Below are positions 59,545 through 64,000 of a DNA stretch of 64,000 nucleotides, one piece after another. The position numbers and the translations under genes were made by a program. The stretch is from IMG/VR virus record IMGVR_UViG_3300024503_000332. The stretch is one strand, 5' to 3'. The notes under the pieces were generated by a model that saw nothing but the letters and a program-made list of their open reading frames with translations, was not told the DNA's origin and ran no database searches. The number at the start of each line of letters is the position of its first letter. The stretch's first letter is position 1. This stretch comes from a virus.

Positions 59545-60249
59545 TTATAACCATTTACGATTCGATAACATCCTTTTTGCCATTTCATACCTGTAACGCA
59601 AACTCTTACGCGGTACGAATGTCTTAGAAGCTAGACAAGCTTCAGCGACGTGTTGTAGTTCCTTACTGTAGTCTATGTGTTTAAGCACAGCCTTTTTATC
59701 AGTTTTAAAACGAACAGCGAACATGGGTTCACCTCTTTTAAGTTCGATAGGCTTAGACAGGTCTTGGATTTCAAAAGTAAAATCCACCGGTCTAATCCAA
59801 CGATGTATATTCATCGTTCCTGGAATCATTTTTATATTCCTTGTCAAACTATTAGAGATCAACGGTACATCAAAACTCTCTATCTCCACATCTTGATCTG
59901 CTACAAACAGATAGTTGATGCGTAGTGTGATACAGGCACTAACTAACTTGCCATCTTTAAGAATAGGAAATCTTGGATAAAATGTTTCATCATACCAATC
60001 TTGTCCTAGCCTGTCAGTGACATATCTGTCATTGTCTGCATCATAGTTTATTATAACATCATAAGGGCAGCGGACAACAAAAATATTGGAAAAATAGTCC
60101 GAAACAGCCGGACATTTGGTATAATCCGCAGTGCCTCTTTCTTTTAATATCAGTGGCCAAATAGGTTCGGGTTCGTAGAAAACGATATCCTTCCATTGGC
60201 TGGATTGTTGATATTTTGGATCGTTGTAGATAGTCCAACCGATATTCAT
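59545..60249 (-). CDS. hypothetical protein (possible dUTPase-like beta fold)
   Basis: KCPAV..F.VRCPYD, IPG...I..W.RP, LKRGEPM. Confidence 0.7.
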   Translation of the reverse strand: MNIGWTIYNDPKYQQSSQWKDIVFYEPEPIWPLILKERGTADYTKCPAVSDYFSNIFVVRCPYDVIINYDADNDRYVTDRLGQDWYDETFYPRFPILKDGKLVSACITLRINYLFVADQDVEIESFDVPLISNSLTRNIKMIPGTMNIHRWIRPVDFTFEIQDLSKPIELKRGEPMFAVRFKTDKKAVLKHIDYSKELQHVAEACLASKTFVPRKSLRYRYEMAKRMLSNRKWL

Positions 60250-60815
60250 ACTTGTATGCCAATATCAGCAGCTAATATAAATCTGTACTTGTTGCTTTGT
60301 ACGATCCCGGGGCGGTGCCAAGTACGACTAGGATATATTAGCCAGTTAAAATCAGTGGGTCTCACAAAAAACTTTGGATCATTTTGAGGGCCATTTGGAG
60401 CCATTTCTGTTCCGCAGTAATCTCTATCTTTAACATCATCAGGGATGCGTAGATAGAATATTCCACTGAGCATTTCTATGTCATCTCGTTTCTGATGATG
60501 ATGCCAAAGATTTTCACGATCTTCTGCACCATCGAGATTTGTCATAAAACTCCAAGCCATCATGTCTGATACTTTAACTTCTCGTCCAACATACATAAAG
60601 ACGCTAAACAAAAAACTCATACGGTATTTTAACCATATAGGCTCAGGTCTAGCAAAAATATTTTCTTTAGTTTGAAACTTTGGACTATTGGTAAAATAGT
60701 TTCCAGATGCGATAATGCCTTCTATGACCTTGCAGGCTTCGTCATTATCTTCTTGTGTGATAATGCTACTAAAATCAAACTTCCTACACATTGGGTCTTG
60801 ATCTATAACCTGCAT
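60246..60815 (-). CDS. putative 2OG-Fe(II) oxygenase
   Basis: WHHH..SGIFYL..IYPS..H..RFILA; start MQVIDQ at 60815 (the ORF-track extension lies inside a tRNA). Confidence 0.7.
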   Translation of the reverse strand: MQVIDQDPMCRKFDFSSIITQEDNDEACKVIEGIIASGNYFTNSPKFQTKENIFARPEPIWLKYRMSFLFSVFMYVGREVKVSDMMAWSFMTNLDGAEDRENLWHHHQKRDDIEMLSGIFYLRIPDDVKDRDYCGTEMAPNGPQNDPKFFVRPTDFNWLIYPSRTWHRPGIVQSNKYRFILAADIGIQV

Positions 60816-60827
60816 AACGTCCTCTAT

Positions 60828-60903
<76 letters not shown>

Positions 60904-61083: not shown

Positions 61084-61157
61084 TGGTTGCGGGTGACAGA
61101 GTCGAACTGCCAACTAGAGCTTATGAGACTCTCGAGATACCGTTTCTCTAACCCGCT
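61084..61157 (-). tRNA. tRNA-Met(CAT), initiator-like 1-72 mismatch
   Basis: AGAGT-CTCATAA-GCTCT; A1xA72; CCA end. Confidence 0.8.
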
Positions 61158-61162
61158 ATAAT

Positions 61163-61368
61163 AAGTGTCTAGCTACTTCCACCACAGAAGCCCTAGACTG
61201 AGTTGTTCCCCTGTCCACACGTTTTATTGTTCTGGAAGGACTGTAGTTGTCCACCTACGGTTGTTTTCGTTTCCCCAAAACGAGGGCGTAAGGTCAAGTC
61301 CGTATGTACCTAGCCGTTTCTTTGGTGATGGCCCCACCCACTTTATCACGGAAAAGTGTAACCGGGTT
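61163..61368 (-). ncRNA. putative structured non-coding RNA
   Basis: About 200 nt with no credible ORF; several hairpins (CACTTT/AAAGTG, TCGTTT/AAACGA, GTCTAG/CTAGAC). Confidence 0.5.
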
Positions 61369-61369
61369 G

Positions 61370-61942
61370 TTAGATCAATCCTTCTGCTTGTAGCGTTGCC
61401 ACTACTTCATCGCTGAGAGGAATCTCAGTCTTGATGTTGAGCTCAAGGATCTCATCATTGATCTTTTGCTTCTGCTTCTTGAGATTTAAGATCTCAGCCT
61501 TAGCTTGATCAATCTGCTCCTGTGTTACCACAGAAGTATTGACGGTGTCACTGTAGCCGTAGAGTCGGCTGCGTGTTTCGCCTTTGTCGTTCTTGATCTT
61601 TTCTAGCTTGCCCTTAATCACATCGATCTCTACCATCTTGGTCAGGCCAGCGATTTCCTCCAACTGACCAATGCGCTTGTCTAGGAAAGCCGCAGTGGCC
61701 AACTTAAGATCAACACCAGAGTTGTTGTTGGCAGCGCCAACAAGTCCGCGAATGTTGTAGAGAGCCAGTGTCAACTTTTGACGACGAGCATCATTGGCAA
61801 ACAGCTTGTCGTTATGTGCCTTGAGCTCTGCTTCCACATTCTGGAACTCGTTGAGTTCGATGCTGGTCTCCATTCTAATGCTCTTGACAGCATCATTGAT
61901 TGCGTTTTGTACAGCGTTTGCCTTACGAAGTGTGATGTTCAT
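61370..61942 (-). CDS. coiled-coil protein, DIP1984-like
   Basis: MNITLRKA...LKKQKQKINDEILELNIKTEI; family resemblance judged by eye. Confidence 0.7.
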   Translation of the reverse strand: MNITLRKANAVQNAINDAVKSIRMETSIELNEFQNVEAELKAHNDKLFANDARRQKLTLALYNIRGLVGAANNNSGVDLKLATAAFLDKRIGQLEEIAGLTKMVEIDVIKGKLEKIKNDKGETRSRLYGYSDTVNTSVVTQEQIDQAKAEILNLKKQKQKINDEILELNIKTEIPLSDEVVATLQAEGLI

Positions 61943-61964
61943 TTCTATGTCTCTCTTTTAAAAT

Positions 61965-62207
61965 AACGGGTTGGTAAAAGGTCAAGTAATAGACCGGACA
62001 ACTTGCAAATAGCAACTTTCAACATGCAGGCTACAGAGGCCTGAATATTTCCGATCAGCAACAAACAGGTATAAGTGGATACCGGATCACTCAAGCACGG
62101 ACAGTTTTCAAGACTGTTTGCCAGTATTGGAGCTTCGGCATGAGGCCGAAACAGTGTCTATCCTCGTCTACCCTTTACCTCGCCGGTCACGTAGTTTCCT
62201 ACGCAAC
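61965..62207 (-). ncRNA. large structured 5' leader/ncRNA
   Basis: Long-range helices GGTAAAGGGT/ACCTTTTACC and ATAGAC/GTCTAT enclose several hairpins; 5' hairpin capped by GAAA. Confidence 0.6.
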
Positions 62208-62213
62208 AAACTT

Positions 62214-62242
62214 ATTATTGCATTATTGTTTCGTTGTGTCAA
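62214..62242 (-). promoter_or_regulatory. sigma70-type promoter
   Basis: TTGACA-17nt-AATAAT; predicted start near 62207. Confidence 0.55.
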
Positions 62243-62855
62243 CCTTACGATCAACCAATCTGCAGTCCCAAGCTAAACTTACTCGATGTCCAGTGCCATT
62301 CCACGGATATACACAATGCGGAATGTTACTAGGGAATACCAGCATCTTAGCCTTCTCGGGCATAAATCTCCACGAGTCTGTAAAGATAAGATGTGCGATA
62401 TTCTTTGACACAGGCAGTTTAAACTCGATGTTTGCATCTGATACTTTGCTAGCCTCATCTAACTTAGGAACATCGATATAGATGTTTCCGCTGATGTTAG
62501 CTTCATGACTATGAAGTACCTGATAGTCTCCAGGACCTTGTTTGATGGTCCAAGCACTGATTAGTTCTGGTGCCACTTGACTAAGGTCAACCATAGGGTT
62601 TTGCTGTTGTATAGCTTTAAGATATTCTTCTACGGATTTCTCTACGAAATCTTTAAGAACGTTGTAGTCTAGTCCAAAATCATTAGGAGCGATTTGGATT
62701 TGCTGTCCTCCCCTAATACTGATAGCCGGATTTCCTTCATCATTTAGCTCATTGTGTGTATGTGCTAGTTTAACGATTTTTTCCAACTCATCGAAGACGT
62801 CCGCTGGGACATCATCTAGTGCTATCACTGTAGGGTTCAAGAACGCAAACTTCAT
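62223..62855 (-). CDS. putative 2OG-Fe(II) oxygenase (TIGR02466-like)
   Basis: SAW..Q.PGDYQ.LHSH..ISGNIY..VFPS..PHCVYP..RVSLAW. Confidence 0.8.
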   Translation of the reverse strand: MKFAFLNPTVIALDDVPADVFDELEKIVKLAHTHNELNDEGNPAISIRGGQQIQIAPNDFGLDYNVLKDFVEKSVEEYLKAIQQQNPMVDLSQVAPELISAWTIKQGPGDYQVLHSHEANISGNIYIDVPKLDEASKVSDANIEFKLPVSKNIAHLIFTDSWRFMPEKAKMLVFPSNIPHCVYPWNGTGHRVSLAWDCRLVDRKVDTTKQ

Positions 62856-62872
62856 ATCTATCCTCAATAAAA

Positions 62873-63589: not shown

Positions 63590-64000
63590 AAGTGCTAACG
63601 CTGAGATTACACGTTAGCCATAAGCACCTCTAGCATTATAGTCCGCCTTGCGAGCAAACCTTCTCTAGACATCCACATAAGCCCTTGCGGTACCTATGTC
63701 TGCTTACAGCATCGCCGTTTTTAAAGCCAGGCAGTAGGCTTGTCGTCACCAGCTATTCTGCGCCTTCTTTTCCGTTGATCTTGCGAACCATTAAGCCTTG
63801 CGAGCTACGAAACTTCTAGCACAAACAGATTTCACCTTGCGAGTTACGTCTGACTTGATTCACTTGCGTGTCAAGCATTAGATGCTTTTCACTGATGACC
63901 GAGGCAGTCTTTGCGTTTTTGTTTACATAGAAGGAGTTGAACCTTCAGCAGTTTCTTTAACAGAGAAATACTCTACCATTGAGTTATATGCAACCTACAA
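63590..64000 (-). ncRNA. GOLLD-like large ncRNA, 3' portion (5' end probably outside window)
   Basis: No credible ORF; six CGCAAG (GCAA tetraloop) hairpin caps; terminal GCTAACG-TGTAATCTCAG-CGTTAGC hairpin; within a tRNA array. Confidence 0.6.
63922..63993 (-). tRNA. tRNA-Asn(GTT)-like cloverleaf without CCA, within or next to the large ncRNA
   Basis: TTGCATA/TATGTAA acceptor; TTTCT-CTGTTAA-AGAAA; GAAGG-TTCAACT-CCTTC; A73 and no CCA. Confidence 0.7.

What the first reader, a model, noticed from the sequence alone, without database searches (positions are those of the whole stretch)
61370..62242. Large structured leader with a tRNA-Ser(UGA) anticodon-arm mimic upstream of a DIP1984-like gene
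Seen: a promoter (62214-62242) is followed by ~265 nt of non-coding RNA. It has a 5' GAAA hairpin (62186-62207), a 10-bp long-range helix (62170-62179 with 61973-61982), a second helix (62156-62161 with 61989-61994), inner hairpins and UUG-rich stretches. One hairpin, ACAGU-CUUGAAA-ACUGU (62101-62117), is a perfect 5-bp/7-nt anticodon arm with the tRNA-Ser(UGA) loop, with no tRNA body around it. The downstream 190-aa coiled-coil protein resembles DIP1984-family proteins by eye. Inference: an RNA-protein module, either an autoregulatory leader, a sensor or decoy for anticodon nucleases, or an RNP scaffold.
Basis: partly seen in the sequence, partly recalled or inferred. Interest (0 to 1): 0.75.

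Follow-up and report, generated by a model that had tools for sequence, protein, structure and literature searches.

The report
New phage RNA paired with small protein
A roughly 265-base folded RNA of no described family always sits next to one small helical protein gene, on either side of it, inside the tRNA gene clusters of many large freshwater phages, which points to a new RNA-protein pair of unknown job.

Summary
Window 61955-62219 (minus strand) holds a near-consensus promoter followed by a ~265-nt structured RNA. It recurs in more than 130 distinct phage sequences.

- **Structure:** 55 base pairs in 9 helices. On 75 sequences, 97.7% of cells pair and 30 pairs show compensatory changes. 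On a wider 31-sequence set, 46 of 55 pairs do. Rfam 15 gives no match.
- **Not a simple leader:** in three distant lineages the RNA lies directly after the 190-aa gene instead of before it. Caulobacter and Brevundimonas jumbo phages probably show the same order. In 6 of 6 lineages tested with the model the RNA touches the gene; the cultured-phage group adds a weaker seventh case.
- **tRNA context:** 127 of 131 distinct copies have tRNA genes nearby on the same strand.
- **Hallmark:** six unpaired UG words spaced exactly 7 nt apart.
- **"Anticodon" hairpin:** it is conserved, but its loop varies (CUUGAAA, CUGAACA, 9-nt forms). A tRNA-Ser(UGA) mimic is therefore not supported.
- **Protein:** confidently folded, and a homodimer prediction passes its controls. 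Its best solved match is 3KDQ, with only faint sequence signal for DIP1984/DUF6847.

Best reading: a dedicated RNA-protein pair, function unknown. First readers of this scan noted the same RNA on other genomes; none of those notes was followed up.

The parts
62214..62242 (-). Sigma-70-type promoter, TTGACA-17-AATAAT with a TG-extended -10. The predicted start is near 62207.
   Evidence: 11 of 12 consensus positions. A TATAAT box is conserved at the same place in most relatives.
61955..62219 (-). The structured RNA ('RNA-X'): the full match to covariance model R1, including the -10 box at its 5' edge. The RNA proper runs from about 62207 to 61960.
   Evidence: 237.7 bits. Covariation. No Rfam match.
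62186..62207 (-). P0: the 5' hairpin, 9 bp with a GAAA loop.
   Evidence: Helix 1: 6 of 7 pairs show compensatory changes.
62156..62185 (-). 5' strands of the closing helices: P1 (62183-62185), P2 (62170-62178) and P3 (62156-62166).
   Evidence: Several G-U pairs are invariant, which fixes the folded strand.
61967..61994 (-). 3' strands of P3 (61983-61994), P2 (61974-61982) and P1 (61967-61969). This stretch contains the near-invariant ACUUGACCUUU.
   Evidence: In relatives that carry rpoZ, the TTGACC here lies 17 nt before a TATAAT.
62134..62150 (-). P4 hairpin. The loop is CUCAU here and UUCAU in most relatives.
62101..62117 (-). P5 hairpin: a 5-bp stem with the 7-nt loop CUUGAAA.
   Evidence: All stem pairs covary. 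Loop spectrum.
62039..62096 (-). P6/P6a arm (62081-62096 with 62039-62055), with conserved internal loops and two further UG words in its terminal loop.
61997..62038 (-). Unpaired tract of six UG words at exact 7-nt spacing. It runs into the 3' strand of P3.
   Evidence: lag 7 gives 349 observed against 28.6 shuffled, and lag 14 gives 187 against 25.7. The window coordinates are read.
61370..61942 (-). 190-aa helical protein gene, the constant neighbour of the RNA.
   Evidence: 903 clusters at 50% identity; pLDDT 95.6; fold nearest 3KDQ / DUF6847; homodimer prediction passes.
61158..61369 (-). Second conserved structured RNA ('RNA-Y'), between the gene and tRNA-Met. It is present in this clade only.
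   Evidence: 35 pairs, 19 with compensatory changes in 19 sequences. No Rfam match.

Best explanation
RNA-X is a new family of ~265-nt structured RNA. Together with the adjacent 190-aa helical protein it forms one self-contained two-gene module in phage tRNA islands. My committed reading is that the two products work together as an RNA-protein complex.

Shown:
- The fold: three nested closing helices (P1-P3) bring the RNA's two ends together and enclose hairpins P4-P6.
- The six single-stranded UG heptads.
- The strict linkage to the gene, in either gene order.
- The embedding among tRNA genes.
- The protein's confident fold.

Predicted, not measured: the protein's homodimer.

Inferred:
- The protein, as a dimer or higher oligomer, binds the RNA.
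- The periodic UG tract is the most likely binding platform. This would parallel the way HutP or TRAP read triplets at fixed spacing.
- The pair acts on the expression or use of the phage's tRNA and translation genes.
For: (1) The RNA is real and under selection for structure.
- 55 pairs; 97.7% of cells paired; 30 pairs with compensatory changes on 75 MAFFT-aligned sequences.
- 0 of 500 shuffles reach the observed values. Slid controls give 28-42% paired.
- 46 of 55 pairs show compensatory changes on a wider, model-fitted set of 31 sequences.
- Invariant G-U pairs show that this strand is the folded one.

(2) Linkage to the gene.
- A scan for an RNA-only motif found 111 stretches. In every copy with enough DNA downstream, the gene follows at 17-34 nt, or at about 220-360 nt where an rpoZ-like gene was seen in L001.
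- Each locus has exactly one RNA. The exception is one contig that carries two complete RNA+gene modules.

(3) The order flips while adjacency holds.
- RNA before gene: the window clade, L191/L192 and L193, the last two with gene identity 36-38%.
- Gene before RNA, with the RNA starting at or within about 45 nt of the stop codon: L195/196/199 (90-94 bits), L203/204 (81 bits) and L201/202 (40 bits).
- In L196 the unit has its own promoter, then the gene, the RNA and a U6 tract. A fresh promoter for the next tRNA follows.

(4) Cultured jumbo phages CcrColossus, CcrPW, Domovoi and Kabachok.
- Each has a 285-312-nt unannotated gap right after the gene homologue.
- In CcrColossus it folds strongly (z = -5.0). 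It has a covarying closing helix and 5-6 UG words at 7-nt spacing.
- Model hits are weak but fall at that position.

(5) The UG heptad periodicity is extreme.

(6) The protein.
- pLDDT 95.6.
- Homodimer score 0.73 against a best control of 0.38. The runs agree in at least 97% of contacts, and partner pLDDT is at least 90. In calibration the mark was reached by 20 of 30 proteins solved as pairs of one chain and by 1 of 23 solved as single chains. A crystal of a fold relative with several chains exists, so part of this pass may come from likeness to it.
- Fifteen alignment positions are at least 70% Lys/Arg.

(7) 127 of 131 distinct RNA copies have tRNA genes within -2/+2.5 kb, all on the RNA's strand.
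Against: - Nothing here measures binding.
- The protein has no recognised RNA-binding domain and a near-neutral pI (median 6.2).
- Adjacency and co-transcription could reflect shared regulation, or a shared pathway without physical contact.
- In the window's own clade the RNA lies 20 nt ahead of the start codon behind its own promoter. Taken alone, that looks like a cis-acting leader.
- The link to the cultured Caulobacter and Brevundimonas phages rests on weak model scores (E 0.002-0.11, and none for Brevundimonas) plus architecture.
- The expression data I asked for could not be obtained.
Confidence: 0.5

Rival explanations
1. Cis-acting transcription attenuator or antiterminator. The closing helices followed by a U-rich tail would act as a conditional stop. 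A factor bound to the UG heptads, which run into the 3' strand of P3, would open it, as HutP does on the hut terminator. That factor could be the 190-aa protein or a host protein. The RNA would then gate read-through into whatever lies downstream: the gene, or tRNAs.
For: - U-rich tails follow P1 in most copies, and a U6 tract in L196 is followed by a new promoter.
- The heptad tract abuts P3.
- HutP reads XAG triplets with 4-nt spacers, a 7-nt repeat, at two sites on a hexamer (PMC2425495).
- This works in either gene order, because genes always follow on the same strand.
Against: - The scan finds no canonical intrinsic terminator here.
- A helix that closes a 200-nt domain is an unusual terminator.
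- The amount of conserved structure (P4-P6, invariant internal loops) far exceeds what an attenuator needs.
- In rpoZ-type loci the RNA's 3' end carries its own TTGACC-17-TATAAT, so downstream genes need not depend on read-through.
Confidence: 0.2
2. A free-standing ornate non-coding RNA of the phage tRNA island, in the manner of GOLLD or ROOL, acting without the neighbouring protein. The linkage would be only inherited synteny.
For: - A GOLLD RNA lies 1.4 kb upstream in the same tRNA island (174 bits).
- The RNA has its own promoter in most copies.
- 127 of 131 copies sit among tRNA genes.
Against: Adjacency survives a swap of order and a complete turnover of the other neighbours: oxygenase, tRNAs, an RNaseH-like gene, an Rv2179c-like gene and an AdoMet_dc gene. 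It holds across 36-100% protein identity. One contig carries a second complete copy of the RNA together with the gene.
Confidence: 0.15
3. The P5 hairpin mimics a tRNA anticodon arm and serves as a decoy or sensor for an anticodon nuclease or an anticodon-loop modification enzyme.
For: - A 5-bp stem with a 7-nt loop is the commonest form, and its first two bases fit a YUNR U-turn.
- A UGA(A) core is nearly invariant, even in distant members: L191 CUUGAAA, L193 CUGAAAA, L196 AUUGAAA.
- The element lives among tRNA genes.
Against: - The would-be anticodon changes register: UGA in 38 sequences, GAA in 25.
- Position 37 is C in 20 sequences, and 10 sequences have 9-nt loops.
- No tRNA body is present by ARAGORN or the Rfam tRNA model.
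- Most of the RNA's conservation lies elsewhere: the closing helices, the P6 loops and the heptads.
Confidence: 0.07
4. An RNA aimed at RNA polymerase, like 6S RNA or the put antitermination RNA. The suggestion comes from the phage omega-subunit gene inserted next to it in some phages.
For: An rpoZ-like gene (PF01192, E = 1.6e-13) sits between the RNA and the gene in L001. A gap of matching size recurs in many other loci. The element lies directly behind a promoter.
Against: rpoZ is absent from the window and from all distant lineages examined. The fold is neither a 6S-like rod nor a put-like pair of hairpins, and Rfam finds nothing.
Confidence: 0.05

Closest known systems
GOLLD and ROOL RNAs (large ornate RNAs of phages, often beside tRNA genes)
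   Same: A phage-borne, elaborately folded non-coding RNA located in a tRNA gene cluster. A GOLLD copy lies 1.4 kb away in this window.
   Different: There is no sequence or structure match to RF02032 or any other Rfam family. RNA-X is about half the size or less. It has a constant protein-gene partner and a UG heptad tract. From my own knowledge, neither feature is described for GOLLD or ROOL.
OLE RNA with its Oap partner proteins, and Y RNA with Rsr (structured RNAs encoded beside their protein partners)
   Same: A conserved structured RNA whose gene stays beside the gene of a small partner protein. This is the logic I use to propose an RNP. The comparison rests on my own knowledge of these systems.
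   Different: Both the RNA and the protein families are unrelated to these. The setting is a phage tRNA island. Binding is not shown here.
HutP on the hut terminator, and TRAP on the trp leader (oligomeric proteins that read triplets at fixed spacing)
   Same: Short words repeated in single-stranded RNA at a fixed period. HutP reads XAG triplets with 4-nt spacers, a 7-nt repeat, three at each of two sites (PMC2425495). RNA-X has six UG words at 7-nt spacing, in many relatives split 4+2 by a hairpin.
   Different: The word is UG/UUG, not XAG. No HutP or TRAP gene is known here. The neighbouring protein is an all-helical dimer-type fold rather than a ring. No terminator function is shown.
DIP1984 / DUF6847 (PF20935, NF038048), for which I take the 3KDQ crystal to be the founding structure
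   Same: 3KDQ is the best solved-structure match for the 190-aa protein: Foldseek probability 0.99 at E = 0.078, and VIA Z = 10.7, rmsd 7.2 A over 141 residues. An Atlas cluster in which 19% of members carry DUF6847 aligns at TM 0.65/0.80.
   Different: The window's protein hits neither HMM, and only 1 of 101 relatives does so, weakly. It is about 40 residues longer. The family has no known function, so the likeness gives no mechanism. The PDB title does not say 'DIP1984'; that identification is from my own knowledge.
thrS operator and other anticodon-arm mimics in mRNA leaders
   Same: A hairpin with a 5-bp stem and a 7-nt U-turn-type loop inside a long RNA ahead of a gene.
   Different: No aminoacyl-tRNA synthetase or tRNA enzyme gene is controlled. 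The loop register is not conserved. The RNA is not always a leader.

Membership tests
Any Rfam 15 family (including GOLLD, ROOL, 6S, tRNA, tmRNA, T-box) | A covariance-model match at or near the family's gathering score | tested here: not met
   No match in 61140-62240 even at E <= 10, and none in the 8-kb scan at E <= 1. GOLLD and 16 tRNAs nearby were found in that same scan.
tRNA or tRNA-like structure | A cloverleaf or L-shaped body with acceptor and T arms | tested here: not met
   ARAGORN and Rfam RF00005 call nothing between 61158 and 62872.
tRNA-Ser(UGA) anticodon-arm mimic | A conserved 5-bp stem and 7-nt loop with a fixed anticodon and a purine at position 37 | tested here: not met
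   The stem is conserved and covaries. The loop is CUUGAAA in 38 of 85 sequences, CUGAACA in 18, CUGAAAA in 5, and 9 nt long in 10.
Cis-regulatory 5' leader of the 190-aa gene | The element always lies upstream of the gene it regulates | tested here: not met
   The RNA lies directly downstream of the gene in L195/196/199, L203/204 and L201/202.
DIP1984 / DUF6847 protein family | A match to NF038048 or PF20935 above the curated cut-off | tested here: not met
   The window's protein gives no hit at E <= 1 (NCBIfam) or E <= 0.1 (Pfam). One of 101 relatives hits at E = 0.0026 and 0.0024.
DIP1984 / DUF6847 protein family | The same fold as the solved member (3KDQ) | tested here: inconclusive
   3KDQ is the top PDB match by both Foldseek (probability 0.99, E = 0.078, TM 0.46/0.55) and VIA (Z = 10.7, rmsd 7.2 A, 141 residues). 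Atlas DUF6847 clusters align at TM 0.65/0.80 and 0.49/0.58. For long-helix proteins a Z below about 13 can be generic.
HutP/TRAP-type periodic-triplet operator | Several short words at fixed spacing in single-stranded RNA | tested here: met
   Six UG words at 7-nt spacing. Lag 7 gives 349 observed against 28.6 shuffled.
HutP/TRAP-type periodic-triplet operator | A cognate ring-shaped oligomeric binding protein, and an overlapping terminator | not tested
   I did not search for HutP or TRAP homologues. The pattern scan finds no canonical terminator.
Type III toxin-antitoxin (ToxIN-like) | Tandem direct repeats of about 36 nt of antitoxin RNA ahead of an endoribonuclease toxin | tested here: not met
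   The RNA is a single non-repetitive fold. The protein is an all-helical fold nearest 3KDQ. The gene order is not fixed.

The most novel reading that the evidence does not exclude
A previously undescribed phage ribonucleoprotein. Dimers of a DUF6847-like helical protein would read six UG heptads displayed by a ~265-nt ornate RNA, and the particle would act on tRNA supply or translation during infection. The module is conserved from uncultured freshwater jumbo phages to, probably, cultured Caulobacter and Brevundimonas jumbo phages. That would give the DIP1984/DUF6847 superfamily its first function and provide a genetically tractable system.
Probability: 0.35. Interest if true: 0.85.

Novelty: new variant of a known kind. 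Interest (0 to 1): 0.72.

Why it matters
Large, heavily conserved non-coding RNAs of unknown function are rare. Each class solved so far has revealed new biochemistry.

This one has three features that make it tractable:
- A deep, strongly covarying alignment that already defines its fold.
- A constant protein neighbour that suggests an RNP.
- Probable relatives in cultured Caulobacter phages (CcrColossus, CcrPW) and Brevundimonas phages, whose hosts can be manipulated genetically.

It sits in phage tRNA islands beside GOLLD RNA, a release-factor-like gene and, in some phages, a phage-borne RNA polymerase omega subunit. Its function may therefore bear on how jumbo phages take over host gene expression. 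It would also give a first functional handle on the DIP1984/DUF6847 fold.

Tried and rejected
- **Rfam.** Searched at relaxed thresholds on the 8-kb region and on the 1.1-kb region alone. Nothing was found for RNA-X or RNA-Y.
- **blastn of the locus against cultured phages.** No match.
- **Whole-genome search.** No genome is held for this window.
- **Expression data.** No transcript ends or levels could be obtained, and read laying was not used.
- **Profile search of the protein family against PDB sequences.** Only a marginal hit to HP1242/DUF465 on one helix (E = 0.016). 3KDQ was not found by sequence.
- **Pfam, NCBIfam and PHROGs on the protein.** Nothing meaningful.
- **Kissing interaction between the P4 loop (UUCAU) and the P5 loop (UGAA).** The loops are complementary in most sequences, but the cross-table shows no covariation, so I left it open.
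- **Scan of bacterial genomes with the protein alignment.** One distant homologue gave no viral loci.
- **A second, broader covariance model.** I used a sequence-only HMM instead, which gave only weak hits in CcrColossus and CcrPW.
- **Catalogue of 10,006 candidate viral structured RNAs (PMC10690425).** I could not check it for this element, because no supplementary files are held. The element may be listed there unnamed.
- **Literature searches for 'DIP1984' and 'DUF6847'.** No functional study was found.
Full report
**What is at the site.** All genes at this end of the window lie on the minus strand. The region is a tRNA island:
- 16 tRNA genes between 58939 and 63993, and none in the first 55 kb.
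- A GOLLD RNA at 63598-63978 (Rfam, 174 bits).
- Two 2OG-Fe(II) oxygenase-like genes.

Between the oxygenase gene (62223-62867) and a 190-aa ORF (61370-61942) lie 280 nt without a credible ORF.
- A promoter, TTGACA-17-AATAAT with a TG before the -10, at 62242-62214.
- A GAAA-capped hairpin at 62186-62207.
- The long-range helices 62170-62179/61973-61982 and 62156-62161/61989-61994.
- The hairpin ACAGU-CUUGAAA-ACUGU at 62101-62117.

The single-sequence fold has z = -3.0.

**It is a conserved structured RNA.** The 190-aa protein has 1,892 relatives in the metagenomic protein collection, and 903 clusters at 50% identity. Eighty IMG/VR loci that encode it all carry the upstream non-coding stretch at 65-78% nucleotide identity.

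A MAFFT alignment of 75 distinct copies gives a structure of 55 pairs in 9 helices. I built it from the RNAalifold consensus plus seven added pairs. The measures are:
- 97.7% of cells pair, and 30 pairs have compensatory changes.
- No shuffle out of 500 reaches any of the observed measures.
- Sliding the partners by 1-3 columns drops pairing to 28-42%.

On a more diverse, model-fitted set of 31 sequences, 46 of 55 pairs show compensatory changes. That alignment leans towards the model's structure. Several G-U pairs are invariant, and they would be C-A on the other strand. The minus-strand transcript is therefore the folded molecule.

A covariance model built from this alignment (R1) finds exactly one copy per locus. 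The only exception is one contig with two full RNA+gene modules. Rfam 15 has no match, even at E <= 10 on the isolated region.

**Anatomy in window coordinates.**
- Predicted start near 62207.
- P0 hairpin, 62186-62207.
- P1-P3 closing helices: 62156-62185 with 61967-61994.
- P4 hairpin, 62134-62150 (loop usually UUCAU).
- P5 hairpin, 62101-62117.
- P6/P6a arm, 62039-62096, with near-invariant internal loops.
- An unpaired tract, 61997-62038.

In the unpaired tract the G of a UG word falls at 62034, 62027, 62020, 62013, 62006 and 61999. That makes six words exactly 7 nt apart. Across the family, UG-UG distances of 7, 14 and 21 nt occur 349, 187 and 104 times. Shuffled sequences give 29, 26 and 21. 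Many relatives carry a variable hairpin between the fourth and fifth word. The window, L191 and L193 do not.

**The 'anticodon arm'.** The P5 stem covaries at every pair. A hairpin with a UGA(A)-containing loop is found even in the most distant members. So this hairpin matters. Among 85 distinct sequences, however, the loop is:
- CUUGAAA in 38.
- CUGAACA in 18.
- CUGAAAA in 5.
- Nine nucleotides long in 10.

The 'anticodon' register therefore shifts, position 37 is often C, and there is no tRNA body. The first two loop bases fit a YUNR U-turn, a common device for presenting bases to a partner (my own knowledge). What that partner is remains open. The P4 loop is complementary to the P5 core but does not covary with it. 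A specific tRNA-Ser(UGA) mimic is not supported.

**Leader or partner?** In the window's clade the RNA ends 17-34 nt before the start codon. In a second group of loci the gap is about 220-360 nt. In L001 that gap holds a 76-aa gene that matches RNA polymerase omega (PF01192, E = 1.6e-13). There the RNA's near-invariant TTGACC lies 17 nt before a TATAAT.

A scan for an RNA-only motif, made independently of the protein, returned 111 stretches. Every copy with enough downstream DNA has the gene.

The decisive result came from distant homologues of the protein, at 36-39% identity:
- In L191/192 and L193 the RNA is upstream, at 76-89 bits.
- In L195/196/199 (90-94 bits), L203/204 (81 bits) and L201/202 (40 bits) the full-length RNA lies directly downstream. 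It starts at or within about 45 nt of the stop codon.
- In L196 the unit reads: promoter, gene, RNA, U6 tract, then a new promoter for tRNA-Trp.

So in 6 of 6 lineages tested with the model the RNA touches the gene, on either side, while the other neighbours change completely. A simple 5' leader cannot explain this. A two-gene functional module can.

**Cultured phages.** Weak protein homologues (24-31% identity) exist in Caulobacter phages CcrColossus and CcrPW and in five Brevundimonas jumbo phages. BFVD confirms the CcrColossus protein as a fold relative at TM 0.88. In each of the four phages examined the gene is followed by a 285-312-nt unannotated gap.
- The CcrColossus stretch folds with z = -5.0.
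- It is about 97% identical between CcrColossus and CcrPW, while the hairpin just before it is rewritten.
- It aligns with the Brevundimonas versions, with compensatory changes in a long closing helix.
- It carries six UUG words at exact 7-nt spacing.
- Model scores are weak but fall at this position. R1 gives E = 0.0023 (CcrPW) and 0.11 (CcrColossus). The sequence HMM gives E = 0.0055 and 0.09. Neither detects the Brevundimonas copies.

I regard these as probable distant members, not proven ones.

**The protein.** AlphaFold2 with 101 relatives gives pLDDT 95.6. The model is mostly long helices, with two short strands at residues 2-4 and 173-175.
- The best solved match by two methods is 3KDQ, an uncharacterised Corynebacterium diphtheriae protein. 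I take it to be DIP1984, from my own knowledge. Foldseek gives probability 0.99 at E = 0.078. VIA gives Z = 10.7, rmsd 7.2 A over 141 residues, about two units above generic coiled coils.
- ESM Atlas clusters that carry PF20935 (DUF6847) align at TM 0.65/0.80 and 0.49/0.58.
- By sequence the link is faint. The window's protein hits neither model, and 1 of 101 relatives hits at E about 0.002.
- A homodimer prediction passes: 0.73 against a best control of 0.38. Runs agree in at least 97% of contacts, and partner pLDDT is at least 90. In calibration, 20 of 30 proteins solved as pairs of one chain reached the mark, against 1 of 23 solved as single chains. A related crystal with several chains exists, so likeness may contribute to the pass.
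- The family pI is near neutral, and fifteen positions are mostly Lys/Arg.

None of this establishes RNA binding.

**Context.** 127 of 131 distinct RNA copies have at least one tRNA gene within -2/+2.5 kb, always on the same strand. The module belongs to the phage tRNA island.

**Mechanism.** I commit to an RNA-protein pair (confidence 0.5). The six UG heptads are the likeliest protein platform, by analogy with HutP. HutP is a hexamer that reads XAG triplets with 4-nt spacers at two sites (PMC2425495).

Rivals:
- A HutP-like attenuator that gates read-through (0.2).
- A free-standing ornate RNA with only syntenic linkage to the gene (0.15).
- An anticodon-arm decoy (0.07).
- An RNA aimed at RNA polymerase (0.05).

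Shown: the fold, the periodic tract, the linkage in both orders, the tRNA context and the protein fold. Inferred: binding, the binding site and the biological role.

**Novelty.** I found no Rfam family and no paper that describes this RNA. It may be an unnamed entry in a bulk catalogue of viral candidate RNAs that I could not inspect. First readers of this scan noted the same element on other genomes, and none of those notes was followed up. I rate it a new variant of a known kind: an ornate phage RNA of tRNA islands, here with a dedicated protein partner and a heptad tract.

Noticed in passing
window 61158-61369 (minus strand): A second conserved non-coding RNA lies between the 190-aa gene and tRNA-Met. 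It is 69-75% identical across many relatives. RNAalifold predicts 35 pairs, 19 of them with compensatory changes in 19 sequences. There is no Rfam match. It is absent from distant lineages such as L191.
   Followed up: partly
window 63598-63978 (minus strand): A GOLLD RNA (RF02032, 174 bits, E = 4e-48). A tRNA-Asn-like gene (63921-63993) overlaps its 5' part. It lies 1.4 kb upstream of RNA-X in the same tRNA island.
   Followed up: no
L001:2774-3004, and the same-sized gap in many related loci: In L001 a 76-aa RNA polymerase omega-like gene (PF01192, E = 1.6e-13) sits between RNA-X and the 190-aa gene. There the RNA's 3' strand and the next bases read TTGACC-17-TATAAT, a second promoter embedded in the RNA gene.
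   Followed up: partly
L024:172-459 and 2700-2988 (same contig as L123): One 6.9-kb phage contig carries two complete RNA+gene modules 2.5 kb apart. The encoded proteins are 68% and 73% identical to the window's. The pair seems to have been duplicated, or acquired twice, as a unit.
   Followed up: no
L201:2188-2388: A called 66-aa 'gene' lies wholly inside the RNA-X match (2069-2359). It is probably a spurious call.
   Followed up: no
protein encoded at window 61370-61942: BFVD lists fold relatives in Vibrio phage Vp_R1 (TM 0.78/0.85) and Erwinia phage pEa_SNUABM_47 (0.82/0.81), and weaker ones in the giant viruses Catovirus and Yasminevirus (about 0.66-0.69 by query). I did not check whether an RNA lies next to those genes.
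   Followed up: no
L085:6262-6711: ARAGORN calls a permuted tmRNA about 2.5 kb downstream of the module in one related phage contig.
   Followed up: no
window 62223-62867 and 60246-60860 (minus strand): Two 2OG-Fe(II) oxygenase-like genes (PF13759; PHROG 81) are interleaved with the tRNA genes and flank the module.
   Followed up: no
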